A DNA stretch of 64,000 nt from an uncultured Anaerolineaceae bacterium (lineage in GTDB: Bacteria > Chloroflexota > Limnocylindria > Limnocylindrales > CSP1-4), in contig CAYYVV010000002.1 in assembly GCA_964475245.1 (NCBI GenBank), positions 39,993-103,992 of the forward strand, written 5' to 3'. A program made the position numbers and the translations under genes. The notes under the pieces are model-generated. The model had not been told where the DNA came from, ran no database searches, and worked only from the letters and a program-made list of their open reading frames with translations. Positions within the stretch are counted from its first letter, which is position 1. Each line of letters opens with the position of its first letter. Of this stretch, positions 3,652-26,696 are shown piece by piece.

Positions 3652-3672
3652 TCTATTTGGACTCCAAACCGA

Positions 3673-4542
3673 TCAGGCCGGCGGCGCCGCGGCCGGCGTG
3701 CTCGGCGCGCTCGGCGTATCTCCGCGGTGAAAGAGTGACCCGACGCGCCATGGCGTACCCAGCATGGGCAGCAGGTAGCGGTCGGCACCGTAGTAACCGG
3801 CCACGCGCCAGGCAAGCATGATGCCGATGGCGAACGTGAACAGGACGGGGTTCGAGGATGTCGATCCGGCGAGCAGGTAGGAGACGTTCATCAGCGCGCC
3901 GAAGAACGCGGCCAGGCCCGTCAGGATGCCGAAGATGAGGCCGATCCCGACGGCCATCTCACCGAACGTGATGAGCAGCGCGAACCAGCCCTGGGCATTG
4001 TTGTTGATGAGCAGGTTGAGGAAATCGCGATACCAGTCGTAGGTGATCGCGGCATGGCCGGTAGCAGGAATCGCGACCGCGCCCTGCCAGTACTTCAACA
4101 GCGAAGAACCGCCGTCAACCCAGCCCGTGCCGGTGAACTTGTCCCAGCCGGCGATGAAGAACGAATAGCCAACCAGGATGCGGATCGGCAGCCAGACCCA
4201 GCCGGCAGAGCGATTGCTGAACAGGAAGCGCGCAAACGGAGGTCCCTCGACCTCGACCGTTTCCGACCCGGGCGCGTTCCGAAAGTTCACGTACAGCGCG
4301 ATCACGAGCGCGATGAATGAGACCCAGAAGACCAATGTGACTAAAGTCCGGAAGTCGCCCGTCAGCCCGATGACCACCAGCAGGGCCAGACTGATCGCAG
4401 CGACTGCGCCCAGGACCCAGATGATCCAGCGCAGTGAGTTCATAGCCAGGTAATCCTCCATCTCTTCGTCGTCGCCCGCAGCTCGGGACAATCGGAATAG
4501 CGAGAGAGTGGCTGCTTTGCCAGCCCGCTCTGAGGGCCACAT
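3673..4542 (-). CDS. DoxX-family membrane protein with extra N-terminal TM helices
   Basis: The C-terminal two-thirds (WLPIRILVGYSFFIAGWDKF...GWFALLITFGEMAVGIGLIFGILTGLAAFFGALMN) looks like the DoxX/DoxD family. The start may be an internal Met (MEDYLAMNSLRW...). Confidence 0.6.
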   Translation of the reverse strand: MWPSERAGKAATLSLFRLSRAAGDDEEMEDYLAMNSLRWIIWVLGAVAAISLALLVVIGLTGDFRTLVTLVFWVSFIALVIALYVNFRNAPGSETVEVEGPPFARFLFSNRSAGWVWLPIRILVGYSFFIAGWDKFTGTGWVDGGSSLLKYWQGAVAIPATGHAAITYDWYRDFLNLLINNNAQGWFALLITFGEMAVGIGLIFGILTGLAAFFGALMNVSYLLAGSTSSNPVLFTFAIGIMLAWRVAGYYGADRYLLPMLGTPWRVGSLFHRGDTPSAPSTPAAAPPA

Positions 4543-4620
4543 GGCCTGTTGTTCGCCCCGCCAAACGGTCCCTCAGGAGTGACGGTCGAACACCGATTGT
4601 AGGTGTCGCGGCAACGAGAA

Positions 4621-4653
4621 AGGCGCCGATCCGCATTCGGCGGATCGGCGCCT
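4621..4653 (-). terminator. intrinsic terminator-like hairpin after the 66-aa ORF
   Basis: Perfect 14-bp stem AGGCGCCGATCCGC / GCGGATCGGCGCCT with a 5-nt loop. On the minus-strand RNA it is followed by UUCUCGUUG. It lies 28 nt downstream of the stop at 4681. Confidence 0.6.
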
Positions 4654-4680
4654 GTCCCAGCGCTGATGAAATAGGCTCGT

Positions 4681-4881
4681 CTAGCGCGACGGGCCGCGTA
4701 CCTCGAGCAGGTGCGCCTTCCAGCCGTCAGGCGCCGAGTCCAAGCTGCTGCCCTGCCAACCGCACGTGCACGTGACCAGCTGCTCACGGTGCTGATAGCG
4801 ATCAATCAGGTGCTTGAACGGTTCCGGCGGCGCGTCCTTGGGCACGGAGCGGCGCCAGACGGAAGAGCTTGACGTTGTCAC
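4681..4881 (-). CDS. small hypothetical protein (66 aa)
   Basis: The ORF has a non-shadow-like composition (MTTSSSSVWRRSVPKDAPPEPFKHLIDRYQHREQLVTCTCGWQG...) and its own downstream hairpin terminator. I recognise no family. Confidence 0.45.
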   Translation of the reverse strand: MTTSSSSVWRRSVPKDAPPEPFKHLIDRYQHREQLVTCTCGWQGSSLDSAPDGWKAHLLEVRGPSR

Positions 4882-5108
4882 GCGTTATCGACCTCTCGTG
4901 AAATCTCTACCCGAGTCGGTGATCCCCTTGTCGACGTCTCCGGGCGGCGACCCACAGCCAATGAAGAACCAGGGTCGCTGCGCTCGTTGGGCTGTTGAGG
5001 TGACGACCAGACTGCCTCGGGAAAGTGCCCCAATATTCTAATCGATCTCGACCAAACCGGCCAGTTCCCAGGGGCGAGGCCGTGAACGAGGCCGTGAGCG
5101 CGCGACCT

Positions 5109-5816
5109 TCAACCGGGAGCGGTACCTGTCCTAGCGGCCGGCGCAGCATTGAGCTCATGAGCGAGCCCGTCGCCGGTGCTCCACTCCGCCGGATACTGCT
5201 CCTTGAGGCGCCGCCTTTCGTCGAGCAGCACGAGCCGGCTGGGCCAGCGCCAATCGGCGCGCCGCTCGCCGGCAGCGATGGTTTCCACGCTCTCGGCGAC
5301 AAACGCGGCGTAGCGCGCGACGGGCGACATGGCGGCGAGCCGTTGCTCGAGAGTCGCGCGTGGGTCGGCCGCGGCGCGCAGGCGGCCCAGGTAGGCGTAG
5401 ATCTCCTGTGAGCCGAGCTCCCAATCCTGTGAGTGACCCCCGCGGGCCAGGATCGGTGCTTCTGAGCTGAACACGGCGACCTTGACGTCTTGGACGCGGT
5501 CGACTTCGAGCTTGCCTCCGAATGAGACGAACTCGTTCGACACGTTCAGGCGATCGACCACTCGGATCAGGCCCCACGAGAAGTCCTGCGTGTCCGCTGC
5601 GTGTGACGGCCAATCGAGAGAGGCGGCCATGCCTCGCCCGCCGAGGTTGGTCCAGTAGTCCACCCGCTCAGGATCGAAATGGTCGAGCGTGGGTGCGGAG
5701 CGCAGCGCGACGAGCAGGTACGCGTGGCCGCGCGCGAACGGGGCGCCCGGAACGAGCAGAAAGCCGATTTCGTCGAGCAGCGAACGGGCAGCGACAGGAT
5801 CCATGACATCGAGCAT
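5109..5816 (-). CDS. hypothetical protein (235 aa)
   Basis: The composition is balanced and protein-like, not Arg/Pro/Gly-dominated. It is divergent from the P-type ATPase gene. I recognise no family. Confidence 0.6.
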   Translation of the reverse strand: MLDVMDPVAARSLLDEIGFLLVPGAPFARGHAYLLVALRSAPTLDHFDPERVDYWTNLGGRGMAASLDWPSHAADTQDFSWGLIRVVDRLNVSNEFVSFGGKLEVDRVQDVKVAVFSSEAPILARGGHSQDWELGSQEIYAYLGRLRAAADPRATLEQRLAAMSPVARYAAFVAESVETIAAGERRADWRWPSRLVLLDERRRLKEQYPAEWSTGDGLAHELNAAPAARTGTAPG

Positions 5817-5929
5817 GCGCTGAGCGTGCGCCGCTGTCCACAGGCGGCGAAGGGCCGGACGGACCCTTGTTGGCGCCCGCGCGCGATGAATGTGTCACGC
5901 CCGATCGCTCTTGGGGTTAGCGTTCGCGG

Positions 5930-8482
5930 GTGACAGTCACGGCATCGCCCTCACCCGGTGCCTCCGACGCGGTATGGACGCTCGATCCTGACGCGGCGCT
6001 GGCTGAGCTGGGCTCGCGCTCGGGCGGGCTGAGTCCGGCCGAGGCGGCCGCGCGCCTGGCCAGCTATGGGCCGAACACGATCGAGCGGCGCAAGCGCAGC
6101 GACACGTTCACGCTTCTCGCGCGCCAGTTCGCCAGCCCGATAATCCTGATCCTCGTCCTCGCCACGATCATCTCGGGCGTGCTCGGCGATGTGACCGACA
6201 CGGTCATCATCCTCGCCATCATCGGCCTGTCGGGGCTGCTCGGCTTCTGGCAGGAGCGTGGCGCAGCGCGCTCGGTCGAGGCCCTGCTCGCCGTCGTCGA
6301 GGTCAAGGCCGATGTCGTTCGCGACGGCGCGACGACCTCCGTGCCGCTCGAGGACGTCGTGCCGGGCGATATCGCCGTCCTCAACGCGGGCGACGTGATC
6401 CCGGGCGACTGCCTCGTGCTCGAGTCGACGTCGTTGCTCGTCGACGAAGCGGCGCTGACCGGCGAGACCTATCCGGTCGAGAAGAAGAGCGGCCAGATCG
6501 CGGCCAGCGCACCGGTGACACAGCGGACGAACGCGCTGTTCCTCGGCACGCACATTGTCAGCGGCTCAAGCCGGTCGCTGGTCGTGGCGACCGGACTCCA
6601 GACACAGTTTGGCCGCGTCTCGGCACGCCTCGCGCAACGCCCGGCGCCGACCGGCTTCGAGCGTGGCATGACCCAGTTCGGTTTCCTGCTCGTGCGGGCA
6701 ATGGTCGTGCTCGTTGGCGTGATCTTTGTTGCCAACATCATCCTGGCGCGGCCGTTCCTCGACTCTGCCCTCTTCGCGCTCGCGCTCGCGGTTGGGCTGA
6801 CCCCCCAGCTCCTGCCCGCAATCGTGACCATCAGCCTCTCGCAGGGTGCGCGGCTCATGGCGCGCAAGCGTGTCATCGTCAAGCGCCTCGAGGCGATCGA
6901 GGACTTCGGCGCGATGTCCGTGCTGTGTACCGACAAGACCGGCACGATGACCGTGGGCACGGTCGAGCTCCAGTCGGCCCTGAGCGTCGACGGCGCGCCG
7001 AGCGATGCGGTCAAACGGCTGGGCTATCTCAACGCCAAGCTCCAGACCGGCTTTGCCAACCCGATCGACCAGGCGATCGTGAAGGCCCTCCCGGCGAGCG
7101 AGGGCGAGGGCGCCACGAGAGTCGCGGAGCTGCCCTACGACTTCAGCCGCACGCGCCTGAGCGTCCTGGTCAAGGACGGCGCCACGACCCAGATGATCAC
7201 CAAGGGCGCGCTCGACTCAGTGCTTGGCGTGTGCACGCAGGTCCAGCTGCCGAGCGGCAAATCGGTGCCGATCGACAGCCAGCGGGCGCAGATCCAGGCG
7301 CAATTCACGAGCCTCAGCGCCCAGGGCTTCAGGGTGCTCGGAGTCGCGAGCAGGCAGATGCCGGGCGCGACGAGCCTGGCGCCGACCGACGAATCGAAGC
7401 TGTGCTTCGAGGGCCTGCTCACCTTCCTCGACCCGCCCAAGGAGAGCGCCCGGCAGACGATCGCCGACCTCGGCGCGAGCGGCATCTCCGTGCGCATGAT
7501 CACCGGCGACAACCACCTGGTCGCGGCTCACGTCGCGCAGCTCGTCGGCCTGGACGGGTCCGTCGTGCTGACCGGCGAACAGATCGGCGCGCTCGACGAT
7601 GCGACGCTCGCCACGCAGGCCGCCACGACGCAGGTCTTTGCCGAGATCGATCCCGTGGCCAAGGAACGCATCATTCGCGCCCTGCGCACCACGGGCAAGG
7701 TCGTCGGCTACATGGGCGACGGCATCAACGATGCCCCTGCGCTCCACGCGGCAGATGTCGGGATCAGCGTCGACAGCGCCGTCGACGTGGCCAAGCAGGC
7801 GGCGGCGATCGTGCTCCTGGACAAGGACCTGGGAGTGTTGCTCGACGGTGTTCGCCAGGGCCGGCGGACGTTCGCGAACACGATGAAGTACGTGTTCACG
7901 ACCACGAGCGCGAGCTTCGGCAACGTGCTGTCGATGGCCATTGCGTCGCTCGTGCTGCCGTTCCTGCCGCTGCTCGCCGGGCAGATCCTGCTGATCAACT
8001 TCCTGACCGACTTCCCGGCGACGACGATCGCGACCGACGAGGTCGACCCCGAGCAGCTCGAACGCCCGCACGACTGGAACATCGGCTTCGTGCGCACGTT
8101 CATGATCGTCTTCGGCTCACTGAGCTCGATCTTCGACCTGCTCACCTTCGTCGTTCTGCCTCACGCCACCGTCGCCGACGCAACCGCATTTCGCAGTGGC
8201 TGGTTCATCGAATCGGTCGCTACGGAGCTGGCCGTGCTGTTCGTCCTGCGCACCCGCCGCCCGTTCTTCCGCAGCAGGCCGAGCCTGCTCCTGCTCGGCG
8301 CAAGCGTTCTCCTCGGCCTGGTCACGCTGGCCATCCCGTACAGCCCGTTGGCCCCGCTGCTGGGTCTCGCGGGACCGCCTCTCGCGCTGCTTGGATCGCT
8401 CGCCTTGATAACCGTCGCGTACGTGATCGCCAACGAGATCGTGAAGGTGCCCTTCTACCGCCGCTTGACCGGAACGTTCTGA
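5930..8482 (+). CDS. cation-transporting P-type ATPase, MgtA-like (probable Mg2+ importer)
   Basis: Carries the DKTGTMT phosphorylation motif, LTGETYPVEK, MITGDN and GDGINDAPAL. The C-terminal membrane segment LPFLPLLAGQILLINFLTDF...DEVDPEQLERPHDWN resembles the MgtA-specific region. Confidence 0.9.
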   Translation: MTVTASPSPGASDAVWTLDPDAALAELGSRSGGLSPAEAAARLASYGPNTIERRKRSDTFTLLARQFASPIILILVLATIISGVLGDVTDTVIILAIIGLSGLLGFWQERGAARSVEALLAVVEVKADVVRDGATTSVPLEDVVPGDIAVLNAGDVIPGDCLVLESTSLLVDEAALTGETYPVEKKSGQIAASAPVTQRTNALFLGTHIVSGSSRSLVVATGLQTQFGRVSARLAQRPAPTGFERGMTQFGFLLVRAMVVLVGVIFVANIILARPFLDSALFALALAVGLTPQLLPAIVTISLSQGARLMARKRVIVKRLEAIEDFGAMSVLCTDKTGTMTVGTVELQSALSVDGAPSDAVKRLGYLNAKLQTGFANPIDQAIVKALPASEGEGATRVAELPYDFSRTRLSVLVKDGATTQMITKGALDSVLGVCTQVQLPSGKSVPIDSQRAQIQAQFTSLSAQGFRVLGVASRQMPGATSLAPTDESKLCFEGLLTFLDPPKESARQTIADLGASGISVRMITGDNHLVAAHVAQLVGLDGSVVLTGEQIGALDDATLATQAATTQVFAEIDPVAKERIIRALRTTGKVVGYMGDGINDAPALHAADVGISVDSAVDVAKQAAAIVLLDKDLGVLLDGVRQGRRTFANTMKYVFTTTSASFGNVLSMAIASLVLPFLPLLAGQILLINFLTDFPATTIATDEVDPEQLERPHDWNIGFVRTFMIVFGSLSSIFDLLTFVVLPHATVADATAFRSGWFIESVATELAVLFVLRTRRPFFRSRPSLLLLGASVLLGLVTLAIPYSPLAPLLGLAGPPLALLGSLALITVAYVIANEIVKVPFYRRLTGTF

Positions 8483-11400
8483 GGCTGCGCGGCGCTCAGC
8501 AGAACCTCGGCAGTCGCCGGCCTGCCGACCAGGTAGCCCTGGATGTAGTGGATATCTATCTCACGCAGCGTACGCAGCTCGGCTGCCGTCTCGACGCCCT
8601 CGGCGATCAGCCAGAAACCGGCCGTACGGGCGAATTGGCGCATACCGACCGCGAGCGCCCTGCGTGCCTCATCGCGGTTGATGCCGGCGATGACGGCGCG
8701 GTCGAGCTTCACGTAGTCCGGTCGCAGCTCGACGATGTGGCGCATGCTCGCGAAGCCGGCGCCAGCGTCGTCCACCGCAAGACGAACCCTCGGGCCGAGG
8801 CGATGCATGGCATCCCGGAACGCTGCGTAGTCGTCGATCGCCTCGTGCTCCGTGACTTCGATCACGATCCTGCGTTCCGAGGCGGCGATGATGCCGGCGA
8901 GCTCCGGCGCGCTGGAGATCACGGCCGGCGAGAGGTTGACGTTGAGCCACGCGTCGCTCTGGAGCGAGTCGGCGCCCTCGATGATTGCCTTGAAGGCCGC
9001 CATCTCAAGGTCCCTGGACATGCCCAGCGCCGCGGCTAACTGGAAGCGCGTTTCGGGATCGGTCCCGTCCTCGAAGCGGGTAAGGCCCTCGTAGCCGACG
9101 ATGCGGCCGATCTCGACGTCCACGATCGGCTGATAGACGGGGTGGAAGGCGTGCAACGCGATGACCGATGCCAGGCTTGCGAGTGCGGCGTCGTTGATCG
9201 TCCGGTCGGCAAGGCGCGCGCCGAGCACGGTCGATGTGATCTCGGCGAACTCGACGAGGGCGGGGAGTGCCTCGGCGAGCTGTTGCTCGGCGTTGTCGAC
9301 GGACGAATTGATGATCAGGAAGCCGACGACATCCTTGCCGTCGCGGACGGGCGCAAAGGCCGTCGCCCTGACGCCCATGACCTCGAAGACCGTGTTGTAC
9401 GGATGGTCCGGGTTTGCGCGCCACGCCTCGATCCACGGCCCACGCTTGCACTGCTCACGCAGGTACGTGGCGCGCCACACAGGCAGGCGCAGCCTCGGCG
9501 GTTCCTGGCCGCTGGGCATGAATGAGCCGGACGGCACCGCCTCGCCATCGCTGGCGAAGACGAACAGGGCCGCGAGCTCGACCTCCGGCAGGCCAGCCAC
9601 CTGGCGGCAGATGGCCGTGGCGATCTCGTCGGCAGTGCCGTGGCTGTCGATGGCGCGAATCGTTTCCGCGATCAGCGCGCGCTCGCGCGCCTGCTGCCGT
9701 GCGGTTTCCTCGTAGCGCCGTTCCTCGGTCACGTCGCGGGCAACTACGACATAGCCGCTCGGCTCGTCGCCGGGCTCGCGAATGGGCGACACGACTACTG
9801 ATGCCTGGAAGGGCACGCCGTCGTTCCGTGTGCCCGAGATGTCGCCGCTCCACGGTGTTCCGGACCCGACCACGTCACCGATCGCCGACCAAGGCCCGCC
9901 GATCTCGGGCGCGCCGCTCATCAGCCAGCCTTCTACGCCGATCTCCCGGCTGGCCACAAAGCCGGTCATGGTCTCAAACCCTGGATTGACATACTCGACC
10001 CGCCCTTCACGGCCGACGACGAGGATTGCCTCCGAGGTGTTCTCGATCGCTGTCTGCAGCCGGACCAGATGCCGCCGGGTGGCCCGTTCGACGGTGACAT
10101 CGCGGGATACGCCGACGACGCCATACGCCTTGCCGTGGGCGTCGCGCAGAACCGTGGTGCGGATGTCGACCCAGACGTCAGAGCCGTCCTTTCGCTTGCC
10201 GCCCCATTCGCCTAGGAAATCAGCTCCGTCACCGATCGTGGCGATATCGGCGGCGAGCGCCTCCTCGCTCTGGTTTGGATAGACGCGCGCGAGCGACGTT
10301 CCGAGCATCTCGTCGGCCGCGTATCCGTAGATCGCCGTGGCGCCTGCGTTCCAGTGCGTCGTCCGGCCCTGAAGGTCGGTCGCGATCACGGCTTCGGTTA
10401 TGTTGCCCAGGATCGATGCCTGAAGACGGAGCTGATCGTCGGCCTCGTGTTCAGCGGTCACATCGTGGCCGTTGAGCACGATGCCTGCGACCGCGGTGTC
10501 GGCGGTTCGGTTCGTGGCCGTCACGCTCAGCCAGCGGTAGCTGCCATCGCGGTGACGGAGGCGGATGTCGAACATGGCCGTCCGTCCCGGCTCCTGGATC
10601 ACCTGGAACAGGACGCGGCCCCTCGTCGCTGCGTCCGCGGGATGGACGAGGCGAACCAGCTGCGTTATTCGGTGCCCCAGGAAGTCACCGGGTTGATAGC
10701 CAAGGAGGCGCTCCGACGCTGGGCTGCAGAACGTGATCAAGCCGTCGGGCGCGACGACCGCGAAGGCGTCGGAGGCGTTCTCGAGCAGGTGCGCGTAGCG
10801 GACCTTCTCGTCGAGCTCGGCACGGACCAGAAGCTGGATTCGCAGCAGCAGTGCTCCGACGACAGCGACCGACGCCACGACGATGACGATCAGCTCTACC
10901 TCGGTGTCGAACAGCTGGTCAAGGGTGACGAAGATCGGGATCGCTGCGAGCGACACGACGCTGATCATCAGCGTGCGACTCTTGCGCTTCGGCATCAGGT
11001 CGGGCATGGCCAATCGCGTCATCGACGGCACCAGCGCGGCAGCGCCCATCACCACGTAGCCGAGCATCCACAGCGCGGCGGTGGTGGCGTCGAGGGAGCT
11101 GGCTGCCGTCGCTCGGGCGGATATCAGGTCGGCCCCCAGGAGCATCGCCAGCGATGCCAGCAATAGCCGGCCAGATAGTGCTGTGCGCGTTCCCTCGTTC
11201 AACACCAGGTAAGCAGCCGCCGCGACGAGCAGCACGTCGCCAATCGGGAACGCGAGCGTGACCAGTTGCGAGCCGAAGGCCAGGGAGTGGTCCGCGACGA
11301 TGTGGTCGATGCGCACCACCCACAGAACGAGTGCACAGGCAACCCCGATGACCGTCGCGTCCAGGAGGGCTATCGACTGCTTCCGCAGGCGCTCGCGGAT

Positions 11401-21370: not shown

Positions 21371-21547
21371 CTACCACGGATAGAGGCCGGCTCCCGGATC
21401 GCTGGTGAGGTTGTACGTATTCGGCGCGCCCGGTCCGTTGAAGATCAACGTCAGGGCCAGCGCGACGACGACGACCACCAGCGCGAGCACGAACAGTTCC
21501 AACCAGACCTCGCGCGAGCGCTCGATCGAGTGCTGGACCATAGCCAT
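21371..21547 (-). CDS. small single-TM membrane protein (58 aa)
   Basis: MAMVQHSIERSREVWLELFVLALVVVVVALALTLIFNGPG... GGAGG lies 7 nt upstream of ATG 21547. The track ORF was trimmed from 21613. Confidence 0.5.
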   Translation of the reverse strand: MAMVQHSIERSREVWLELFVLALVVVVVALALTLIFNGPGAPNTYNLTSDPGAGLYPW

Positions 21548-21719
21548 CGAAGTGCCTCCTTCGAGGGCTGCCCGTGGAGCATCGTCGCCACCGCGGCGTT
21601 GCGGGCGACCCAAGGGCGCGCGCCGTGGCTTGCCTCCCGGTGTGATGCCTTGTGCGCCACTTTGATCGGAGGCGTGAACCGGTTCAAGTGCCGTTGGTCA
21701 CTGCCGGCTCGGTGGCACT

Positions 21720-21766: not shown

Positions 21767-21841
21767 TCCGGCGTAGCTCAGTGGTAGAGCGGGCGGCTGT
21801 TAACCGCTTGGTCGTAGGTTCGAATCCTACCGCCGGAGCCA
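21767..21841 (+). tRNA. tRNA-Asn (anticodon GTT), CCA encoded
   Basis: Acceptor stem TCCGGCG / CGCCGGA, D-arm TAGCTCAGTGGTAGAGC, anticodon loop CTGTTAA, T-arm GGTTCGAATCC, discriminator G plus CCA. Confidence 0.95.
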
Positions 21842-21887: not shown

Positions 21888-22256
21888 GTGCCGATTATTC
21901 GCAGCATGCCACGCGACGGACGCCGGTCGACCGATCCAATGCGCCTGCGTGCTGACCTGCGCGAGCGGGCGCTCGATCGACTTTCTCGCCTGACCACCGC
22001 GACCGCGATCGCCGGAACCTTCGCAACCGTTGGTTTCGGCGGCCTGGCGGCGATCACCTACTCGGGTACGCCGGTAGGTAGCGATCCGGTGACGGTCGAC
22101 GACCAGACCACGGCACCGCAAGCCAACACCACGGATCCCTCGAACACCACGGGCTCACTGGCGACGCAGCAGCCCAGCACGCACCAATTCGTTCCCGCCC
22201 AGCCACCGACCGTCACGACGCGCCGCCGAACTCACGTCTCTTCGGGCGGATCCTGA
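21888..22256 (+). CDS. single-pass membrane protein with a Thr/Pro-rich low-complexity ectodomain (first gene of the redox operon)
   Basis: An Arg-rich N-terminus is followed by the TM segment TATAIAGTFATVGFGGLAAITY, then about 75 aa rich in T/P/Q/S, ending ...RRRTHVSSGGS. The stop overlaps the apbE ATG (TGATG). The start could also be the internal Met (MRLRADL...). Confidence 0.5.
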   Translation: MPIIRSMPRDGRRSTDPMRLRADLRERALDRLSRLTTATAIAGTFATVGFGGLAAITYSGTPVGSDPVTVDDQTTAPQANTTDPSNTTGSLATQQPSTHQFVPAQPPTVTTRRRTHVSSGGS

Positions 22257-23218
22257 TGGCAATGCGCGTCGAGCGCTGGCGCCAGATCGGCACGAGCGTC
22301 GACGTGGTCGTCAGCAACGGCACGCTGGAGAAGGCGGTTGAGGTTGTCCGATCGACGATCGACGCAGCCGATCGCGCATTCAGCCGGTTTCGCGACGACA
22401 GCGAGCTGAGCCTCGTCAATCGTTCGCCCGGCCGGCGGCTGCGCGTCAGCCCGTTGCTCGTGCAGGCGGTCGAGGTAGCTCTCAGCGCCGCAGCAACGAC
22501 GAGCGGCCTGGTCGATCCGGCGCTCGGCTCGGCGATCAAGCTCATCGGCTACGACCGCGACTTCGACGAGCTGCGCGGGCGCGACATCGCCACGGTCGAC
22601 ATGGCGCCCGGCGCCTGGCGGTTCGTCGCCGTCGAAGGATGGCGCGCGGTCGAGCTCGACCGCGCGCGTGGCACGCTGCGCGTCCCGGCCGGCGTCGAGC
22701 TCGATCTCGGATCGACGGGCAAGGCGCTCATCGTCGACCTCGCGACGCGCGCGGCGGCCGAGACGCTGACCGTCGGCGGGGGCGTGCTCGTATCGATCGG
22801 CGGCGACATGATGACCGCGGGCCGGCCGCCGCGCGGCGGCTGGATCGTCCAGCTGGCCGAGGACAGCAGCGCGCCGCTCGATCCAGCGACGCCCGTCGTC
22901 GCAGTCCATGACGGTGCGCTCGCCACTTCGAGCACGACCGTCCGCCGCTGGCTCGCGCGCGGCGAGCTCGTCCACCACCTGATCGACCCGCGCACAGGAC
23001 GGCCGGCCGAAGGGCCGTGGCGCACGGCGACGGTAGTGGCCGCGGACTGTGTCACGGCCAACACGGCGGCCACGGCCGCGATCATCCTGGGTGACGCTGC
23101 CGCCGCCTGGCTTGAGCAGCGTTCTCTGCCATCTCGACTCGTCGCCCACGACGGCTCTGTCAGCTACGTCGGTGGCTGGCCTGCGGATGCACGTGCAGTA
23201 ACCGCGTCCGCAGCATGA
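22256..23218 (+). CDS. apbE: FAD:protein FMN transferase (ApbE family), no signal peptide
   Basis: ApbE-like layout: IGTSVDVVV near the N-terminus, RFRDDSELSLVN, LDLGSTGKAL, SIGGDM and C-terminal TVVAADCVTANTAATAAIILG. The reading frame has a stop at 22079..22081. No ATG/GTG/TTG lies upstream of 22256, so no N-terminal export signal is possible in this frame. Confidence 0.85.
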   Translation: MAMRVERWRQIGTSVDVVVSNGTLEKAVEVVRSTIDAADRAFSRFRDDSELSLVNRSPGRRLRVSPLLVQAVEVALSAAATTSGLVDPALGSAIKLIGYDRDFDELRGRDIATVDMAPGAWRFVAVEGWRAVELDRARGTLRVPAGVELDLGSTGKALIVDLATRAAAETLTVGGGVLVSIGGDMMTAGRPPRGGWIVQLAEDSSAPLDPATPVVAVHDGALATSSTTVRRWLARGELVHHLIDPRTGRPAEGPWRTATVVAADCVTANTAATAAIILGDAAAAWLEQRSLPSRLVAHDGSVSYVGGWPADARAVTASAA

Positions 23219-23817
23219 GCGACCAGCTCCTGTGGTTCGCGAGCCGCGGCTCGGGGATCGTTTCGCTGCTCCTGCTCACGACCGTCACCGTGCTCGGCCT
23301 GACCAGCATGGTCCGCTGGCAACGGCCCACCTGGCCGCGCTTTCTGACCAACGATCTGCACGCCAACCTTGCCCTGCTCTCGGTCGTCTTCGTTGGCGTG
23401 CACGTCACGAGCGCGATCCTCGATCCGTTCACCAATCTCGGCATCTACGCGGCGACGATCCCGTTTGCGTCGAGCTACCGCCCGCTGTGGGTCGGGCTCG
23501 GCGTCATCTCCGTCTATCTGTTCGTTGCCCTGATCATCACCAGCCTCGTGCGCGAGCGCCTCGGCCAGCGCGCGTGGCGCCTCGTCCACTGGGTCGCGTA
23601 CGCCGGCTGGCCGCTCGCGGTCGTGCACAGCATGGGCTCGGGCAGCGATGCGTTCGCGCCGTGGATGATGGGCATCGAGGCGCTGTGCATCGGCGTCGTC
23701 GCGCTCGCGCTGATCTGGCGCGTCGCTGCGGGACGGACGAACCGGGAGCAGCTGCCCGCCGTCGTCGGCGCATCGCGCCGGGTCCACGCGCCATATGCCG
23801 ATGGTGATCACCGGTGA
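23215..23817 (+). CDS. ferric-reductase-like (MsrQ/YedZ-like) di-haem transmembrane protein
   Basis: Five to six TM segments. Two His pairs sit 13 to 14 residues apart in TM helices (HANLALLSVVFVGVH and HWVAYAGWPLAVVH), the classic bis-haem b ligand pattern. ATGA overlap with apbE. Confidence 0.75.
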   Translation: MSDQLLWFASRGSGIVSLLLLTTVTVLGLTSMVRWQRPTWPRFLTNDLHANLALLSVVFVGVHVTSAILDPFTNLGIYAATIPFASSYRPLWVGLGVISVYLFVALIITSLVRERLGQRAWRLVHWVAYAGWPLAVVHSMGSGSDAFAPWMMGIEALCIGVVALALIWRVAAGRTNREQLPAVVGASRRVHAPYADGDHR

Positions 23818-25040
23818 CCTTTGAAGCCCGCCTGCTCGCAGGCCCTGCCTTTGGCGCGGGCATGGAGCCCTACGCTGCACATCGGGCGCGCCTCGGGCAG
23901 CTACCGCCGCCACGGCCCGAGCTCATCGACACGCTCGTGGCGAGCGGCCTTCTCGGTCGCGGCGGCGCGGGCTTCCCGGTCGGGCGCAAATGGCAGGCGG
24001 TCGAGTCGCGCTCGCAGGCAGATGCGCGGATCCTCGTCAACGGCGCCGAGGCAGAGCCGCTGAGCGCCAAGGACCGAGCGCTGATGCACTCGCGGCCCCA
24101 TCTCGTGCTCGATGGTGCGCTGCTGGCCGCTGGCGTCCTCGGCGCGCGCGAGATAGTCCTGTACGTCGGCGCGAGGCACATCGACGCGCGGCGCTCGCTC
24201 CAGCGCGCGATCGCGGAGCGCGGTCGACTGCGCGTGCCTGTGCGCATCGTGCTCGCGCCCGACGCATACGTGGCGGGGGAGGAGTCGGCGGCAGTTCACT
24301 TCGTCAACGCTGGCGACGCGCGGCCCACGGTCACTCCGCCACGGCCGTTCGAGAGTGGCATCGACGGCTCGCCGACCCTCGTCCAGAACGTGGAGTCGCT
24401 CGTCCATGTCGCGCTGATCGCGCGCGGCGGCGACGCGTGGTATCGCTCGCTGGGGCGCGGAGAGACCCGCGGCACGGCCCTCGTGACCGTCAGTGGCGCC
24501 CCGTACGGCGGCGTGCGCGAGATCGAGCTCGGCACGCGCGTGGGCGAGGTCGCGGCCGTGAGTGGTGTCGCGCCGGGCAGTGCGCACGCGGTGCTGTTGG
24601 GCGGCTACTTCGGCCGCTGGCTGACCCGCGAGCAGGCCTGGGCCGTGCCGCTCGACCCGCAGGCCCTGCGTGCGGCGGGCGCGACCTTCGGCGCCGGTGT
24701 GATCAGCTTCCTGCCTGCTGACCAATGCGGAGTGGCGGCCACGGCGACCGTGCTCGAGTACATGGCCGCGCAGAGCGCCGCGCAATGCGGACCGTGCGTC
24801 TTCGGCCTGCGCTCAATCGCCGACACGACGATGGCCCTGGCGACCAACAGCGCGGTCGTCCATGACCTGGATCGGCTCGAGCGCTGGACGGGCCAGATCA
24901 ACGGCCGTGGCGCATGCCGCCATCCGGACGGCGCCGTGGCCATGCTCATGTCGGCCATGGCCGCGTTCGGGCCCGACTTCGCCAGCCATGCGCGAGGCCG
25001 CGGCTGCGAGGTCGCCGCCGCACTCAGGCCGGCGGCATGA
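23814..25040 (+). CDS. NuoF-like NAD(P)H-binding FMN / 4Fe-4S flavoprotein (stand-alone Complex I 51-kDa-type subunit)
   Basis: GLLGRGGAGFPVGRKW, NGAEAEPLSAKDRALM and a C-terminal Cys cluster SAAQCGPCVFG...GRGACRHPDG parallel NuoF motifs. GTGA overlap with the upstream gene. No nuoE-like partner is in the window. Confidence 0.8.
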   Translation: MTFEARLLAGPAFGAGMEPYAAHRARLGQLPPPRPELIDTLVASGLLGRGGAGFPVGRKWQAVESRSQADARILVNGAEAEPLSAKDRALMHSRPHLVLDGALLAAGVLGAREIVLYVGARHIDARRSLQRAIAERGRLRVPVRIVLAPDAYVAGEESAAVHFVNAGDARPTVTPPRPFESGIDGSPTLVQNVESLVHVALIARGGDAWYRSLGRGETRGTALVTVSGAPYGGVREIELGTRVGEVAAVSGVAPGSAHAVLLGGYFGRWLTREQAWAVPLDPQALRAAGATFGAGVISFLPADQCGVAATATVLEYMAAQSAAQCGPCVFGLRSIADTTMALATNSAVVHDLDRLERWTGQINGRGACRHPDGAVAMLMSAMAAFGPDFASHARGRGCEVAAALRPAA

Positions 25041-25261
25041 AACGGACAGTGGAGCGGACCGTTGGGCTGCTCGTGGTCGATCCGATCGTGTGCGACGGCC
25101 ACGGCCTGTGCGCCGAGCTGCTGCCTGAGCTGATCGAGATCGACGACTGGGGCTATCCGATCCTGCGCTCGGCCGCGGTGCCACGCGAGCTCGCGGCCTA
25201 CGCGCGTCGGGCGGTAGCCGCGTGCCCGGTACTCGCCCTGAAGCTGGCACCGACGGAATAG
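25037..25261 (+). CDS. small ferredoxin (74 aa)
   Basis: MKRTVERTVGLLVVDPIVCDGHGLCAELLPELIEIDDWGYP...AVAACPVLAL shows the single-cluster C..G.G.C....C-P pattern of small actinobacterial-type ferredoxins. ATGA overlap with the NuoF-like stop. The track ORF was trimmed from 24914. Confidence 0.75.
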   Translation: MKRTVERTVGLLVVDPIVCDGHGLCAELLPELIEIDDWGYPILRSAAVPRELAAYARRAVAACPVLALKLAPTE

Positions 25262-25488: not shown

Positions 25489-25854
25489 TTGACCGCGACG
25501 GGCCTCTCGGCGACCCCGCAGGAATATCGCGAACGGCTCGATGAGCAGCCCGATGAACGGGTCGACAGCTGGGCAGCCGAACTCATGCGCGACACGTCGA
25601 TCCGCATCGGCGTGCGCCAGGTGGTCTCTGAGCTGCGCCACTCCTTCGCCACGGACGATGCCGGGTTGCGCCGGATCTACACGGCCGGGGGAGGGCCGGC
25701 TGCCGCTATCGGCGCGACCGACAAAGGCGAGCTGATGGTCCCGGCGATCTCGCTCTACTACTTCGTCAGCGGCGCCCGTGTCGTTCTGGGCGACGCGCGC
25801 AGCCGGCTGATCGACTACCTGGTGTCGAATTTCAAAGAGATCGTCTACATCTAG
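25489..25854 (+). CDS. hypothetical protein (121 aa)
   Basis: TTG start preceded by GGAGGG. The composition is protein-like. It lies 20 nt upstream of the UbiA gene on the same strand. I recognise no family. Confidence 0.5.
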   Translation: MTATGLSATPQEYRERLDEQPDERVDSWAAELMRDTSIRIGVRQVVSELRHSFATDDAGLRRIYTAGGGPAAAIGATDKGELMVPAISLYYFVSGARVVLGDARSRLIDYLVSNFKEIVYI

Positions 25855-25874
25855 GCACGGATGCTCGTCTCCGG

Positions 25875-26696
25875 GTGAGCAGCCGGCTGCGCGCCCTGCG
25901 CGTCGTCCATCCCTTCCCCTCGTTGCTCAATACAGCGCTGGTCTTCGGGCTGGCCGAGATTGCCCACGCAACGGTTACGGCAGGGGCACTGCTGGCCGTG
26001 GGCATGCTCGGCCTGCAACTGTGCATCGGCGCTACGAACGATCTCGTGGACCAGCCGCTCGACGCGCGGACTAAGCCCTGGAAGCCGATCCCAGCCGGCC
26101 TGATCAGCGCCCAGAACACGCGCTATATCGCGGCATCGGCGGCAGTGATCGGTCTGGTGGCCGCGGCCACAACCGGCATCGTCCCCGCCGTGCTCTGGTG
26201 CGTCATGCTCGCGGCTGGCTTGCTCTATGACCTGCGCCTGAAGCCAACCCTATTCAGCTGGGCGTGTTATTCGGTCGCCTTCGCGGCATTGCCGCTCTAT
26301 GCCTGGTTCGGTGCCGCCGGAACACTTCCGCCGCAGGTCCAGCTGGTCGTTCCGCTCGCTGTTTTGGCCGGACCTGCGCTTCAGCTGTCCAATGGCCTGA
26401 CCGACATCGAGTCGGACCAGGGTGCGGGAACGTCGAGCCTCGCCATCCGCCTGGGCCGGCAGCGGGCGCTGGCTGTCATCGGGTTGCTGCTGGCCGTGAT
26501 CCATGGCCTTGCCTGGCTGACGCTGGCCGCATTCTCGGCGCAGGTCAGCCTGCTCCTTGTAGGCGGGTCATTAGCCGCCATTGCCGGGCTCACCTTGTCG
26601 GCGCGGTCGCTAGTGCGCGATCGTCAGGTCGGCTGGTCGCTCCAGGCCGTCTCGATCTGCCTCGTTGCGCTGGGCTGGCTGTCGTCCGTCGCGTAG
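25875..26696 (+). CDS. UbiA-family prenyltransferase (short, 273 aa)
   Basis: Polytopic membrane protein with the Asp-rich motif NDLVDQPLD after TM2 and a second acidic patch (LTDIESDQG). Confidence 0.8.
   Translation: MSSRLRALRVVHPFPSLLNTALVFGLAEIAHATVTAGALLAVGMLGLQLCIGATNDLVDQPLDARTKPWKPIPAGLISAQNTRYIAASAAVIGLVAAATTGIVPAVLWCVMLAAGLLYDLRLKPTLFSWACYSVAFAALPLYAWFGAAGTLPPQVQLVVPLAVLAGPALQLSNGLTDIESDQGAGTSSLAIRLGRQRALAVIGLLLAVIHGLAWLTLAAFSAQVSLLLVGGSLAAIAGLTLSARSLVRDRQVGWSLQAVSICLVALGWLSSVA

What the first reader, a model, noticed from the sequence alone, without database searches (positions are those of the whole stretch)
21888..25261. Five-gene translationally coupled operon: membrane ORF, ApbE, di-haem ferric-reductase-like protein, NuoF-like flavoprotein, ferredoxin
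All four gene junctions are start/stop overlaps: TGATG at 22254..22258, ATGA at 23215, GTGA at 23814 and ATGA at 25037. This implies fixed stoichiometry.

The parts suggest a self-contained transmembrane electron conduit:
- An NAD(P)H-oxidising FMN/4Fe-4S NuoF-type module without NuoE or the rest of Complex I.
- A small ferredoxin.
- A membrane protein with two His pairs positioned for two b haems.
- A flavin transferase that normally installs covalent FMN on a redox partner.

ApbE with MsrQ-like or FMN-binding proteins has been linked to extracytosolic electron transfer. A dedicated NuoF-like plus ferredoxin input fused into the same operon is not a textbook system. The acceptor here is unclear.
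Basis: partly seen in the sequence, partly recalled or inferred. Interest (0 to 1): 0.7.

Follow-up and report, generated by a model that had tools for sequence, protein, structure and literature searches.

The report
Membrane electron conduit with flavin-tail protein
This is a real five-gene operon for moving electrons from the cell interior across the membrane, of a kind already noted in genome surveys, but its overlooked first gene belongs to an unannotated family of tiny membrane proteins whose conserved tail looks like a natural attachment site for a flavin.

Summary
Five co-directional genes (21906-25261) have start/stop overlaps at all four junctions. HMM matches confirm ApbE, a four-histidine Ferric_reduct/MsrQ-like membrane protein, a NuoF-like flavoprotein and a three-cysteine ferredoxin.

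The order ApbE–MsrQ-like–NuoF-like–ferredoxin recurs in 36 of 80 related genome loci (41 have the MsrQ-like gene) from Chloroflexota and Actinomycetota. The window looks like a Limnocylindrales-type Chloroflexota MAG.

The architecture is not new. Méheust et al. 2021 listed "MsrQ-like" flavinylation clusters, 31 of them with a NuoF-like gene.

The new part is ORF1.
- It belongs to an unannotated family (523 representatives at E≤1e-3).
- Members have an Arg-rich N-terminus, one TM helix, a Thr/Ser-rich linker and a terminal [H/Q]-[V/A]-[T/S]-[T/S]-G-G-S.
- That tail matches, in register, the seven-residue ApbE motif D-x-x-[S/T]-G-A-[S/T].
- No FMN_bind gene is present in the annotated loci.

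I propose ORF1 is the flavinylated subunit, a natural "flavin tag" on a tether.

Two problems remain. The ApbE has no signal peptide, although the tail is predicted outside. It also carries Asn where the conserved catalytic-centre Asp should be.

The acceptor is unknown and nothing has been tested experimentally.

The parts
21767..21841 (+). tRNA-Asn (GTT) immediately upstream of the operon. It is context only and is also present upstream of ORF1 in the syntenic relative L087.
   Evidence: ARAGORN; Rfam RF00005, 73 bits; a tRNA-like pseudo-translation upstream of ORF1 in L087.
21906..22256 (+). ORF1: a small single-pass membrane protein (116 aa from ATG 21906). Alternative starts are GTG 21888 (122 aa) and ATG 21939 (105 aa). 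It has an Arg-rich N-terminus, one TM helix, a Thr/Ser/Pro-rich linker and a conserved C-terminal heptapeptide. Proposed role: the flavinylated subunit.
   Evidence: - No Pfam or NCBIfam family.
- Family of 523 representatives at E<=1e-3.
- Directly upstream of ApbE/FRD in 29 of 36 testable loci by script, 31 after adding by eye L008 and L012, which the regex missed.
- 4/4 independently sampled family members lie upstream of the same cluster.
21987..22058 (+). Predicted transmembrane helix of ORF1 (LTTATAIAGTFATVGFGGLAAITY). It is preceded by the conserved juxtamembrane motif R-x-R-A-x-x-R-L-x-x-L-T.
   Evidence: Alignments A2/A4. Positive-inside statistics: K+R 4.56 on the N-flank against 0.34 on the C-flank, with N>C in 99.6% of 235 members.
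22233..22253 (+). C-terminal heptapeptide H-V-S-S-G-G-S-stop of ORF1. It is a candidate ApbE flavinylation site, with Ser116 (codon 22251-22253) as the predicted FMN-phosphoester acceptor.
   Evidence: - Read from the sequence.
- Motif G-x-[AG]-[HQ]-[VA]-[TS]-[TS]-G-G-S-COOH in 107/120 and 115/127 family members.
- Published minimal motif D-x-x-[S/T]-G-A-[S/T], and terminal flavin-tags work best (PMC12052999).
22256..23218 (+). ApbE-family protein (320 aa). It has no signal peptide or lipobox: the domain begins at residue ~10. Ser225 and His240/His241 are conserved. Asn269 (codon 23060-23062) replaces the conserved Asp.
   Evidence: PF02424, 162 bits; PDB alignments to TM1553 and T. pallidum Ftp; N-termini of 35 homologues; column counts in 34 homologues.
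23215..23817 (+). MsrQ-like / ferric-reductase-domain cytochrome b (200 aa). It has five predicted TM helices and four invariant His: H49, H63, H125, H138 (codons 23359, 23401, 23587, 23626). The loops DPF..LG..A..PFAS.YRP and G-S-G-S-D are strongly conserved and predicted to face outward.
   Evidence: PF01794, 37.3 bits; alignment A3 of 30 sequences; AF2 model with pLDDT 79 and helices 3-31, 42-69, 90-113, 118-141, 149-187.
23814..25040 (+). NuoF-like flavoprotein (408 aa). It contains an FMN/NAD(H)-site domain and an Fe-S domain. Invariant Cys are 305, 325, 328, 368 and 398. No NuoE partner is present.
   Evidence: - Pfam PF01512 + PF10589.
- TIGR01959 scores 212 bits against a cut-off of 559.
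- PDB hits to HydB/NuoF at E about 1e-44.
- AF2 pLDDT 80 and Foldseek TM 0.75-0.84 to NuoF/HydB.
- Alignment A1.
25037..25261 (+). Single-cluster ferredoxin (74 aa) with three Cys only: C19-x2-H-x2-C25 ... C62-P. It is probably a [3Fe-4S] type.
   Evidence: PF13459 Fer4_15, 50.9 bits. It sits adjacent to the NuoF-like gene in 80/80 loci. The residue between the first two Cys varies (H/Y/F) among homologues.

Best explanation
The operon encodes a five-part, NAD(P)H-fed transmembrane electron conduit of the 'MsrQ-like flavinylation-associated' type.

**Proposed path**
1. NAD(P)H reduces the FMN of the cytoplasmic NuoF-like protein.
2. Electrons pass to its Fe-S cluster.
3. They move to the small [3Fe-4S]-type ferredoxin.
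4. They reach the inner haem b and then the outer haem b of the five-helix MsrQ-like cytochrome.
5. They end on a flavin on the outer face.

**Proposed identity of the outer flavin (new here).** It is not held by an FMN_bind domain. It is FMN phosphoester-linked by the operon's ApbE to the last serine of ORF1. ORF1 is a single-pass membrane protein whose Thr/Ser-rich disordered linker ends in a conserved heptapeptide ([H/Q]-[V/A]-[T/S]-[T/S]-G-G-S-COOH). That heptapeptide mimics the minimal ApbE recognition motif. The flavin would either dock on the conserved outer loops of the cytochrome or swing on its tether to reach an acceptor in the cell envelope.

**Timing of flavinylation.** The ApbE has no export signal, so flavinylation would have to happen in the cytoplasm before the short tail is translocated.

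**Shown:** gene content, order, conservation, motifs, the predicted folds of the NuoF-like and MsrQ-like proteins, and the absence of an FMN_bind gene.

**Inferred:** every cofactor, the direction of flow, flavinylation of ORF1, its topology, and the acceptor, which is unknown.
For: **Domains**
- Domain assignments.
- NuoF fold.
- Four invariant His in five TM helices.

**Conservation**
- NuoF-like+Fdx in 80/80 loci, MsrQ-like upstream in 41, ApbE upstream of that in 36, across Chloroflexota and Actinomycetota.
- The NuoF-like+Fdx pair recurs with unrelated partners in mycobacteria (putative amidohydrolase/Rieske cluster, read by eye). It therefore behaves as a portable reductase module.
- The published survey reaches the same conduit inference for MsrQ-like clusters with NuoF-like genes (PMC8238504).

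**ORF1**
- The same architecture lies directly upstream of ApbE/FRD in 29 of 36 testable loci by script, 31 by eye.
- In L024, L031 and L032 it sits next to FRD with no ApbE between them.
- 4/4 family members sampled by ORF1 homology alone lie upstream of the same cluster.
- The C-terminal motif is present in 107/120 and 115/127 members, with the final Ser essentially invariant and 0-1 residues after it in most.
- The background for such an ending is 1 in about 990 unrelated gene calls.
- The motif matches the 7-residue ApbE motif in register: S/T at 0, G at -2, S/T at -3, and a conserved polar residue at -6.
- Engineered terminal flavin-tags are fully flavinylated, and D->A at -6 has only minor effect (PMC12052999).
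- No FMN_bind gene lies within about 9-10 kb in the window or in three annotated relatives.
- Méheust et al. note that orphan apbE genomes imply unidentified substrates.
- Positive-inside bias places the tail outside.
Against: - The ApbE here and in about 35 homologues has no signal peptide, TM helix or lipobox. The ORF1 tail is predicted extracytoplasmic. Enzyme and substrate would therefore meet only before export, and I know of no precedent for that among ApbE substrates.
- One of the three residues said to be conserved in ApbE catalytic centres (Asp285, V. cholerae numbering) is Asn in 33/34 members of this subfamily. Transferase activity cannot be assumed.
- The ORF1 motif has G/S where canonical sites have Ala, and H/Q where they have Asp.
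- The NuoF-like protein lacks the NADE Asp, the NADH-site Lys and the first N3 Cys. NAD(P)H use and cluster type are unproven.
- No acceptor gene (MsrP, iron transporter) is nearby.
- Foldseek could not significantly place the MsrQ-like model.
- No experimental data exist for any member.
Confidence: 0.45

Rival explanations
1. The conduit is the same (NAD(P)H -> NuoF-like -> ferredoxin -> di-haem MsrQ-like -> outside), but ORF1 is not flavinylated. ORF1 would be a structural, anchoring or assembly subunit, or a glycosylated envelope protein. The ApbE would modify a conventional FMN_bind or other substrate encoded elsewhere in the genome.
For: - The ORF1 tail deviates from the canonical motif: Gly/Ser instead of Ala, and His/Gln instead of Asp.
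- The ApbE is predicted cytoplasmic and the tail outside.
- ORF1-like paralogues sit next to GtrA and PMT_2/YkcB_C glycosyltransferase genes, away from any ApbE. The family may therefore have an envelope role independent of flavin.
Against: - The extreme C-terminal heptapeptide is the most conserved part of a 500-member family and matches the ApbE motif in register.
- ORF1 and ApbE are adjacent, and often overlapping, in about 30 loci.
- No alternative substrate gene lies within about 9-10 kb in any annotated locus.
Confidence: 0.25
2. The system is an inward-facing, membrane-bound NAD(P)H:quinone (or ferredoxin:quinone) oxidoreductase. The NuoF-like protein and ferredoxin would deliver electrons to the MsrQ-like haems, which reduce menaquinone, or run in reverse from quinol. 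The ApbE and ORF1 tail would act on the cytoplasmic side.
For: - E. coli MsrQ is described as the quinone-linked haem subunit of MsrPQ (cited in PMC8238504).
- The ApbE has no export signal.
- No extracytoplasmic acceptor gene is linked to the operon.
Against: - The positive-inside bias of ORF1 is extreme: 99.6% of 235 members.
- Its Thr/Ser/Pro-rich linker is typical of exported regions.
- A two-haem transmembrane relay is unnecessary for a same-side reaction.
- The most conserved loops of the cytochrome are on the predicted outer face.
Confidence: 0.12
3. The ApbE-like protein is not a flavin transferase in this subfamily because of the Asp->Asn change. It would act instead as an FAD-binding or FAD-processing factor that supplies flavin to the NuoF-like protein. 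The ORF1 tail motif would then serve another purpose, for example binding to the cytochrome or to a metal.
For: - Asn269 replaces the Asp that aligns with the AD motif in the TM1553 and T. pallidum structures, in 33/34 members.
- The review lists Ser241/His257/Asp285 as the only conserved catalytic-centre residues.
- ApbE-family FAD pyrophosphatases are known in T. pallidum (titles and abstracts).
Against: - Ser225 and the HH(I/L)(I/L)DPxTG motif with the proposed general base are invariant.
- Asn can still ligate Mg2+ (my own knowledge, untested here).
- The mycobacterial NuoF-like+Fdx pairs work without any adjacent ApbE. The NuoF-like protein therefore does not generally need one.
Confidence: 0.1

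Closest known systems
'MsrQ-like' flavinylation-associated gene clusters (Méheust, Huang, Rivera-Lugo, Banfield & Light 2021, eLife; PMC8238504)
   Same: Both have a PF01794 di-haem membrane protein clustered with apbE and a cytosolic NAD(P)H module. The paper explicitly lists 31 clusters with a NuoF-like (PF10589) gene and finds them mainly in Actinobacteria. It infers the same transmembrane electron transfer.
   Different: [quoted passage not shown] Here there is no FMN_bind gene and no signal peptide on ApbE.
- A small tail-motif protein occupies the substrate position, and the ferredoxin is an obligatory fifth part.
- I could not see the paper's cluster table because the supplement was cut. 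I therefore cannot say whether its 31 clusters are this same subtype.
E. coli MsrPQ with the flavin reductase Fre (a two-component NOX-like system) and eukaryotic NOX/STEAP
   Same: Both use a ferric-reductase-domain cytochrome b with two His pairs that relays electrons from a cytosolic NAD(P)H-oxidising flavoprotein to the other side of the membrane. In both bacterial cases the dehydrogenase is a separate soluble protein rather than a fused domain.
   Different: - The donor here is a NuoF-type FMN/Fe-S protein plus a ferredoxin, not Fre or a fused FNR-like domain.
- No MsrP (molybdoenzyme) partner is present.
- The model has five TM helices rather than six.
- Structural similarity to STEAP was not significant.
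Listeria monocytogenes flavin-based extracellular electron transfer (FmnB/PplA/EetAB/Ndh2)
   Same: Both occur in monoderm-type cells, use an ApbE-family enzyme, and have a membrane-tethered flavinylated carrier as the last protein-bound redox centre outside the membrane.
   Different: - PplA is a lipoprotein with folded FMN_bind domains, and FmnB is an exported lipoprotein.
- Electrons in Listeria cross via quinone and EetA/B, not via a di-haem cytochrome fed by ferredoxin.
Engineered 'flavin-tag' (Tong et al. 2021, as summarised in PMC12052999), and the C-terminal flavinylation extensions of ApbE-associated FMN_red proteins (Huang et al. 2024, PMC11334425)
   Same: In both, a seven-residue motif ending in Ser/Thr, placed at a protein terminus or on an unstructured C-terminal extension, is enough for ApbE-dependent FMN attachment.
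   Different: - The flavin-tag is synthetic.
- In FMN_red proteins the tail folds back onto a flavin-binding domain.
- ORF1 has no folded domain at all, and its motif differs at two positions (G/S for A, H/Q for D).
NuoF / HydB / NfnB family (complex I 51-kDa subunit and relatives)
   Same: Both share the fold (TM-score 0.75-0.84), the GRGGAGFP flavin loop, and the GEE and NVE(S/T) motifs. Three of the four N3-type Cys positions are kept.
   Different: - The protein stands alone, with no NuoE or 2Fe-2S partner.
- It scores far below the NuoF equivalog cut-off.
- The NADE Asp, the NADH-site Lys and the first CxxCxxC Cys are missing.
- Cys305 and Cys398 are invariant additions.

Membership tests
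MsrQ-like flavinylation-associated cluster (operational definition of Méheust et al. 2021) | A PF01794 gene in the same cluster as an ApbE, FMN_bind, DUF3570 or DUF2271 gene | tested here: met
   PF01794 (37.3 bits) is adjacent to PF02424 (162 bits).
MsrQ-like flavinylation-associated cluster (operational definition of Méheust et al. 2021) | A signal peptide or lipidation site on at least one of the flavinylation genes (the extracytosolic criterion) | tested here: not met
   The ApbE domain starts at residue ~10, and no hydrophobic or lipobox segment is present in the window or in about 35 homologues. No dedicated signal-peptide predictor was available, so this was read from the sequences.
MsrQ-like flavinylation-associated cluster (operational definition of Méheust et al. 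2021) | An FMN-binding-domain (PF04205) gene, described as typical of these clusters | tested here: not met
   No FMN_bind hit among the five proteins or among genes within about 9-10 kb in L001, L087, L088 and L089.
MsrQ-like flavinylation-associated cluster (operational definition of Méheust et al. 2021) | A cytosolic NAD(P)H module, either fused PF00175 or NuoF-like PF10589 | tested here: met
   PF01512 + PF10589 in the gene overlapping the MsrQ-like stop codon.
ApbE FAD:protein FMN transferase | An ApbE domain above the curated Pfam threshold | tested here: met
   162.4 bits against a cut-off of 25.6. The E. coli-type equivalog NF007774 scores only 54 bits against a cut-off of 498.
ApbE FAD:protein FMN transferase | Conserved catalytic-centre residues Ser241 / His257 / Asp285 (V. 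cholerae numbering) | tested here: not met
   - Ser225 and His241 are invariant.
- The Asp position, which has the same 16/28 spacing and aligns to 'AD' in 1vrm and 4xdt, is Asn269 in 33/34 subfamily members.
ApbE FAD:protein FMN transferase | Mg2+-dependent transfer of FMN from FAD to a Ser/Thr of a target | not testable with these tools
   This needs an enzyme assay.
ApbE substrates (flavinylation motif D-x-x-[S/T]-G-A-[S/T]) | Ser/Thr acceptor at position 0, Gly at -2 and Ser/Thr at -3 | tested here: met
   In ORF1 family representatives, S is at position 0 in 114/115, G at -2 in 113/115, and T/S at -3 in 115/115.
ApbE substrates (flavinylation motif D-x-x-[S/T]-G-A-[S/T]) | Ala at -1 and Asp at -6 | tested here: not met
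   Position -1 is Gly (106/115). Position -6 is His or Gln (93/115). Published mutagenesis shows D->A is tolerated and A->V halves flavinylation.
ApbE substrates (flavinylation motif D-x-x-[S/T]-G-A-[S/T]) | Covalently bound FMN demonstrated | not testable with these tools
   This needs in-gel fluorescence or mass spectrometry.
NuoF (complex I NADH-binding subunit) | Full-length match above the NuoF equivalog cut-off, and a nuo operon context with NuoE | tested here: not met
   TIGR01959 scores 212.5 bits against a cut-off of 558.65. No NuoE or other nuo genes lie in the locus.
NuoF (complex I NADH-binding subunit) | FMN loop GRGGAGFP, plus the GEE and NVE(T/S) motifs | tested here: met
   These are invariant in alignment A1 and align to HydB/NuoF.
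NuoF (complex I NADH-binding subunit) | Four N3 cluster ligands, CxxCxxC...C | tested here: not met
   The first Cys is Ala322. Cys325, Cys328 and Cys368 are kept, and Cys305 and Cys398 are invariant extras.
Ferric reductase domain / MsrQ (YedZ) family | A PF01794 match with two His pairs in two TM helices | tested here: met
   37.3 bits against a cut-off of 28. H49/H63 and H125/H138 are invariant in 30 sequences and lie in helices 42-69 and 118-141.
Ferric reductase domain / MsrQ (YedZ) family | An MsrP (molybdopterin) partner gene | tested here: not met
   None lies within 10 kb or in relatives.
Single-cluster ferredoxin (Fer4_15) | CxxXxxC...CP cluster motif above the Pfam threshold | tested here: met
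   50.9 bits against a cut-off of 22.4. There are three Cys (19, 25, 62), and the X position varies H/Y/F among homologues. The cluster type ([3Fe-4S]) is inferred from the literature on such motifs, from my own knowledge.

The most novel reading that the evidence does not exclude
ORF1 and its roughly 500-cluster family would be a new, domain-less class of ApbE substrate. Each is a membrane-anchored, intrinsically disordered Thr/Ser-rich tether that carries a single FMN on its very last serine. The FMN would be installed by a signal-peptide-less, Asn-variant ApbE in the cytoplasm before the tail is exported. The flavin would then work as a tethered, swinging electron shuttle between a di-haem MsrQ-like cytochrome and acceptors in the cell envelope of soil Chloroflexota and Actinomycetota.
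Probability: 0.35. Interest if true: 0.75.

Novelty: new variant of a known kind. Interest (0 to 1): 0.55.

Why it matters
- **A new kind of flavoprotein.** Flavinylation by ApbE underlies Nqr, Rnf, N2O reduction and Gram-positive extracellular electron transfer. All natural substrates known so far hold the flavin in or against a folded domain. If a bare C-terminal heptapeptide on a disordered membrane tether is a natural substrate, it would widen what counts as a flavoprotein.
- **Orphan apbE genes.** It would explain some of the 'orphan apbE' genomes.
- **A link to biotechnology.** It would give a natural counterpart to the biotechnological flavin-tag.
- **Order of events.** It would raise a mechanistic question about whether modification precedes export.
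- **Ecology.** The system is common in abundant, mostly uncultured soil lineages (Limnocylindrales-type Chloroflexota, Solirubrobacterales, Gaiellales, Acidimicrobiia). Their envelope redox chemistry is essentially unknown.
- **Annotation.** Gene callers often miss ORF1 or call the opposite strand, so the family is invisible in annotation.

Tried and rejected
1. **A Rosetta-stone fusion.** P0018 (605 aa, Ferric_reduct + NuoF-like) looked like a fusion. Its middle section is the +1-frame translation of the MsrQ-like C-terminus, so it is a frameshift artefact.
2. **A Tat signal-anchor on ORF1.** This would reconcile a cytoplasmic ApbE with an exported, cofactor-loaded tail. Only 93/235 members have RR near the helix, and 1/235 fits a Tat-like consensus.
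3. **ORF1 as the N-terminal anchor of ApbE, joined by frameshifting.** In relatives the ORF1 stop lies 15-80 nt before the ApbE start. ORF1-like genes also occur without an adjacent ApbE.
4. **The C-terminal motif as a sortase- or CTERM-type sorting signal.** No TM helix or basic tail follows the motif, which sits at the very end of the protein.
5. **An integrated mobile element at the tRNA-Asn with ParAB.** The synteny DnaG-RpoD...tRNA-operon...UbiA-ParB-ParA-carboxyltransferase is conserved in relatives at 59-72% identity.
6. **An FMN or other riboswitch upstream.** None was found.
7. **Promoter and terminator consensus scans.** They found nothing.
8. **Flavinylation motifs in the other proteins.** NuoF-like 'VSGAP' is not conserved and ends in Pro. 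MsrQ-like 'GSGSD' is out of register.
9. **Missing NADE Asp in the NuoF-like protein as a link to ApbE.** The change is family-wide, including the mycobacterial pairs without ApbE.
10. **Foldseek of the MsrQ-like model against the PDB.** STEAP1/2 came top but were not significant.
11. **The cluster table of Méheust et al.** The stored supplement is truncated, so the 31 NuoF-like clusters could not be inspected.

Full report
**1. Observation**

The region 21888-25261 contains five co-directional ORFs. I verified the four junctions base by base:
- TGATG at 22254-22258
- ATGA at 23215-23218
- GTGA at 23814-23817
- ATGA at 25037-25040

A tRNA-Asn lies just upstream at 21767-21841.

HMM scans confirm four of the five identities:
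- ApbE: PF02424, 162 bits.
- Ferric_reduct: PF01794, 37.3 bits against a cut-off of 28.
- NuoF-like: Complex1_51K plus NADH_4Fe-4S.
- Ferredoxin: Fer4_15.
- ORF1: no match in Pfam or NCBIfam.

Start/stop overlaps are frequent in this genome. By my crude gene calls, 15 of 41 same-strand junctions overlap. The overlaps are also not preserved in relatives. They support an operon with translational coupling, not 'fixed stoichiometry'.

**2. Origin and conservation**

The identical NuoF-like protein occurs on metagenome contigs of up to 89 kb. The closest genome loci are MAGs labelled uncultured Chloroflexia, Chloroflexota or Candidatus Limnocylindrales, at 55-62% identity. A second tier at 38-48% identity comes from Gaiellaceae, Solirubrobacterales, Acidimicrobiia, Acidothermaceae, Mycobacteriaceae and Nocardia.

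Across 80 genome loci:
- NuoF-like and ferredoxin are adjacent in all 80.
- The MsrQ-like gene is directly upstream in 41.
- ApbE is upstream of that in 36.

In mycobacteria and Nocardia the NuoF-like+ferredoxin pair sits in a different cluster. By eye from the sequences, this cluster holds amidohydrolase-like, Rieske-like and DUF35-like genes; I did not confirm this with HMMs. The pair therefore behaves as a portable reductase module.

The window's operon lies in a conserved chromosomal context: DnaG-RpoD ... tRNA-operon ... 121-aa ORF-UbiA-ParB-ParA-carboxyltransferase. It is not a mobile element.

**3. What is already known**

Méheust et al. 2021 (PMC8238504) defined 'MsrQ-like' flavinylation-associated clusters: 1797 clusters, mainly in Actinobacteria. 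They state that 31 of them include a NuoF-like (PF10589) protein, and they infer NAD(P)H-driven transmembrane electron transfer.

The overall architecture is therefore a published bioinformatic category, with no experimental characterisation that I could find.

[quoted passage not shown] They were also filtered for a signal peptide or lipobox on a flavinylation gene.

**4. ORF1 is the interesting part**

The ORF immediately upstream of ApbE (or of the MsrQ-like gene) has the same architecture in both phyla:
- an Arg-rich N-terminus with the motif R-D-R-A-x-x-R-L-R-x-L-T-x-G
- one TM helix
- a low-complexity linker (Thr 28%, Ser 17%, Ala 16%, Gly 8%, Pro 7%)
- a conserved extreme C-terminus

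*Family size and motif*
- A profile search of 1.84 billion representatives finds 523 proteins at E<=1e-3 and 184 at E<=1e-10. The profile end nearly always coincides with the protein end.
- None of the 120 hits listed from the annotated collection has a Pfam domain, and the source names are 'hypothetical protein' apart from one 'RodZ' label.
- The C-terminal logo is G-x-[A/G]-[H/Q]-[V/A]-[T/S]-[T/S]-G-G-S-COOH. It is present in 107/120 and 115/127 members, and the last Ser is essentially invariant.
- Among 996 crude gene calls in the fetched loci, only eight end this way. Seven are ORF1-like and one is a call on the opposite strand in a different locus.

*Linkage to the cluster*
- The architecture lies directly upstream in 29 of 36 testable loci by script. 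By eye the count is 31, because L008 and L012 were missed only by the regex.
- In L024, L031 and L032, ORF1 abuts the MsrQ-like gene with no ApbE between them.
- Four family members chosen only by ORF1 homology on long contigs all sit upstream of ApbE-MsrQ-like-NuoF-like, and the ferredoxin was also detected in three of the four.
- Gene callers often miss ORF1 or call the opposite strand.

**5. Why the tail looks like a flavinylation site**

The 2025 JBC review (PMC12052999) gives these facts:
- The minimal ApbE motif is seven residues, D-x-x-[S/T]-G-A-[S/T], and the last residue is modified.
- An engineered seven-residue 'flavin-tag' works best at a protein terminus.
- D->A has a minor effect.
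- G->A and A->V reduce flavinylation to about 50%.

The ORF1 tail matches in register at position 0 (Ser), -2 (Gly) and -3 (Ser/Thr). It has a conserved polar residue (His/Gln) at -6 and Gly/Ser instead of Ala at -1.

Huang et al. 2024 (PMC11334425) confirmed by SDS-PAGE that ApbE-associated FMN_red proteins, which carry flavinylation motifs on an unstructured C-terminal extension, are flavinylated.

No FMN_bind gene lies within about 9-10 kb in the window or in three annotated relatives. None of the other four proteins has a conserved in-register motif. Méheust et al. themselves note that orphan apbE genomes imply unidentified substrates.

**6. Two real difficulties**

*No export signal on ApbE*
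- The ApbE here and in about 35 homologues begins roughly nine residues before the first β-strand of the ApbE fold. It has no signal peptide, TM helix or lipobox.
- Yet ORF1 is predicted N-in/C-out with an extreme positive-inside bias. K+R is 4.56 on the N-flank against 0.34 on the C-flank, and N>C in 99.6% of 235 members.
- Cytosolic ApbEs do exist, for example in K. pneumoniae.
- If ORF1 is the substrate, modification must precede translocation of the tail. The protein is only about 110 residues, so insertion would be largely post-translational.
- Cytoplasmic modification before export has precedents among glycosylated adhesins (my own knowledge). I know of none for flavinylation.
- A Tat signal-anchor would have solved the conflict, but it is not supported.

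*Asn in place of the conserved Asp*
- Of the three residues the review calls conserved in ApbE catalytic centres (Ser241/His257/Asp285), the Asp is Asn269 in 33/34 members of this subfamily. The spacing is identical, and the position aligns with 'AD' in TM1553 and T. pallidum Ftp.
- Cys265 is also nearly invariant.
- Transferase activity is therefore plausible but unproven.

**7. The other parts**

*MsrQ-like protein*
- Four His are invariant, and the loops D70-P71...P83-F84-A85-S86-x-Y88-R89-P90 and G141-x-G143-S144-D145 are highly conserved.
- AF2 predicts five TM helices with pLDDT 79.
- By positive-inside reasoning and by analogy with NOX helices 2-6 (inference), the N-terminus is outside, the C-terminal tail is inside, and the conserved loops face outward.
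- Foldseek placed STEAP1/2 top, but not significantly.

*NuoF-like protein*
- It has the NuoF/HydB fold, with TM-scores of 0.75-0.84.
- It keeps the GRGGAGFP, GEE and NVES motifs.
- It lacks the NADE Asp (Ala78), the Lys aligned with the 'GTK' motif of NuoF/HydB (Ala222) and the first Cys of CxxCxxC (Ala322).
- Cys305, 325, 328, 368 and 398 are invariant.
- It scores far below the NuoF equivalog cut-off and has no NuoE partner.

*Ferredoxin*
- It has only three Cys in a CxxHxxC...CP pattern, and the middle residue varies among homologues.
- By published work on such motifs (my own knowledge), this indicates a [3Fe-4S] cluster.

**8. Mechanism proposed**

The proposed path is:

NAD(P)H -> FMN and Fe-S of the NuoF-like protein -> ferredoxin -> inner haem -> outer haem of the MsrQ-like cytochrome -> FMN on the ORF1 tail -> unknown envelope acceptor.

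Every step is inferred from homology and gene linkage. None is demonstrated.

The acceptor is not indicated by the neighbourhood. There is no MsrP, VIT1 or iron-transport gene nearby.

**9. Verdict**

The system type is already catalogued.

The specific subtype has four features:
- no FMN_bind gene
- a signal-less, Asn-variant ApbE
- an obligatory ferredoxin
- a conserved unannotated tail-motif protein

I rate it a new variant of a known kind, with a testable and moderately likely novel element.

Noticed in passing
L008/L089 10620-12509; L009-L011, L014, L016, L017, L029, L036, L053 downstream of fdx; L034-L043, L049, L052, L064 divergent upstream; L013, L015, L030, L085, L086 upstream on the same strand: An OmpR-type response regulator plus histidine kinase lies next to the ApbE-MsrQ-like-NuoF-like-Fdx cluster in 28 of the related loci, nearly all of the 41 that carry the MsrQ-like gene. 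It occurs in three different arrangements across two phyla, which suggests dedicated regulation. The window's operon and its closest syntenic relatives (L087, L088) have no such pair adjacent.
   Followed up: partly
L089 13072-16092; L014 5638-8012; L016 9568-12456; L093 5877-6637: In several Chloroflexota loci a second ORF1-like paralogue with the same C-terminal ...H-A-[ST]-T-G-G-S tail follows the two-component system. Where Pfam annotation was available (L089, L093), a GtrA-family gene comes directly after it, and in L089 a ~690-aa PMT_2/YkcB_C mannosyltransferase-like gene as well. This hints that the Thr/Ser-rich linkers may be O-glycosylated outside the membrane.
   Followed up: partly
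L089 6090-6842 (-); L091 5348-5920 (-); L092 3192-3806 (-): A membrane-anchored DM13-domain protein (PF10517) is encoded divergently just upstream of ORF1 in three relatives. From memory, DM13 has been associated with DOMON and cytochrome b561 redox proteins, so it could be a candidate extracytoplasmic partner. It is not present next to the window's operon.
   Followed up: no
L045, L047, L050, L062, L074 (about 1700-9100): In Mycolicibacterium, Mycobacterium and Nocardia the NuoF-like+ferredoxin pair sits among genes that look, by eye from the sequences, like amidohydrolase-2-like, Rieske-like, alpha/beta-hydrolase-like and DUF35-like proteins. These were not checked with HMMs. The cluster looks catabolic, and the pair probably serves there as the reductase for an oxygenase.
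   Followed up: no
window 25489-26696: A 121-aa ORF with no family match and a 273-aa UbiA-family prenyltransferase (PF01040; no specific NCBIfam equivalog) lie downstream. The pair is syntenic with ParB/ParA in L087 and L088 and follows the ferredoxin gene in L012. In L087 and L088 other genes separate it from the ferredoxin gene, so it is probably not part of the operon.
   Followed up: partly
L087 7140-7439 (-) against 6964-7455 (+); L088 7153-7482 (+): Public gene calls miss ORF1 (L088) or call a spurious ORF on the opposite strand of its low-complexity linker (L087). The family is therefore under-represented in protein databases and neighbourhood analyses.
   Followed up: yes
protein P0018 (605 aa, from a 1.79-Mb contig): This is an apparent Ferric_reduct+NuoF-like fusion protein. 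It is a frameshift artefact: the C-terminal third of its MsrQ-like part is the +1-frame translation.
   Followed up: yes
window 45595-45945 (+): A bacterial RNase P class A RNA (RF00010, 211.6 bits).
   Followed up: no
window 21371-21613 (-): A small ORF (80 aa as listed here; 58 aa in public gene calls) with a hydrophobic stretch and no family match lies between the acetyltransferase gene and the tRNA-Asn.
   Followed up: no
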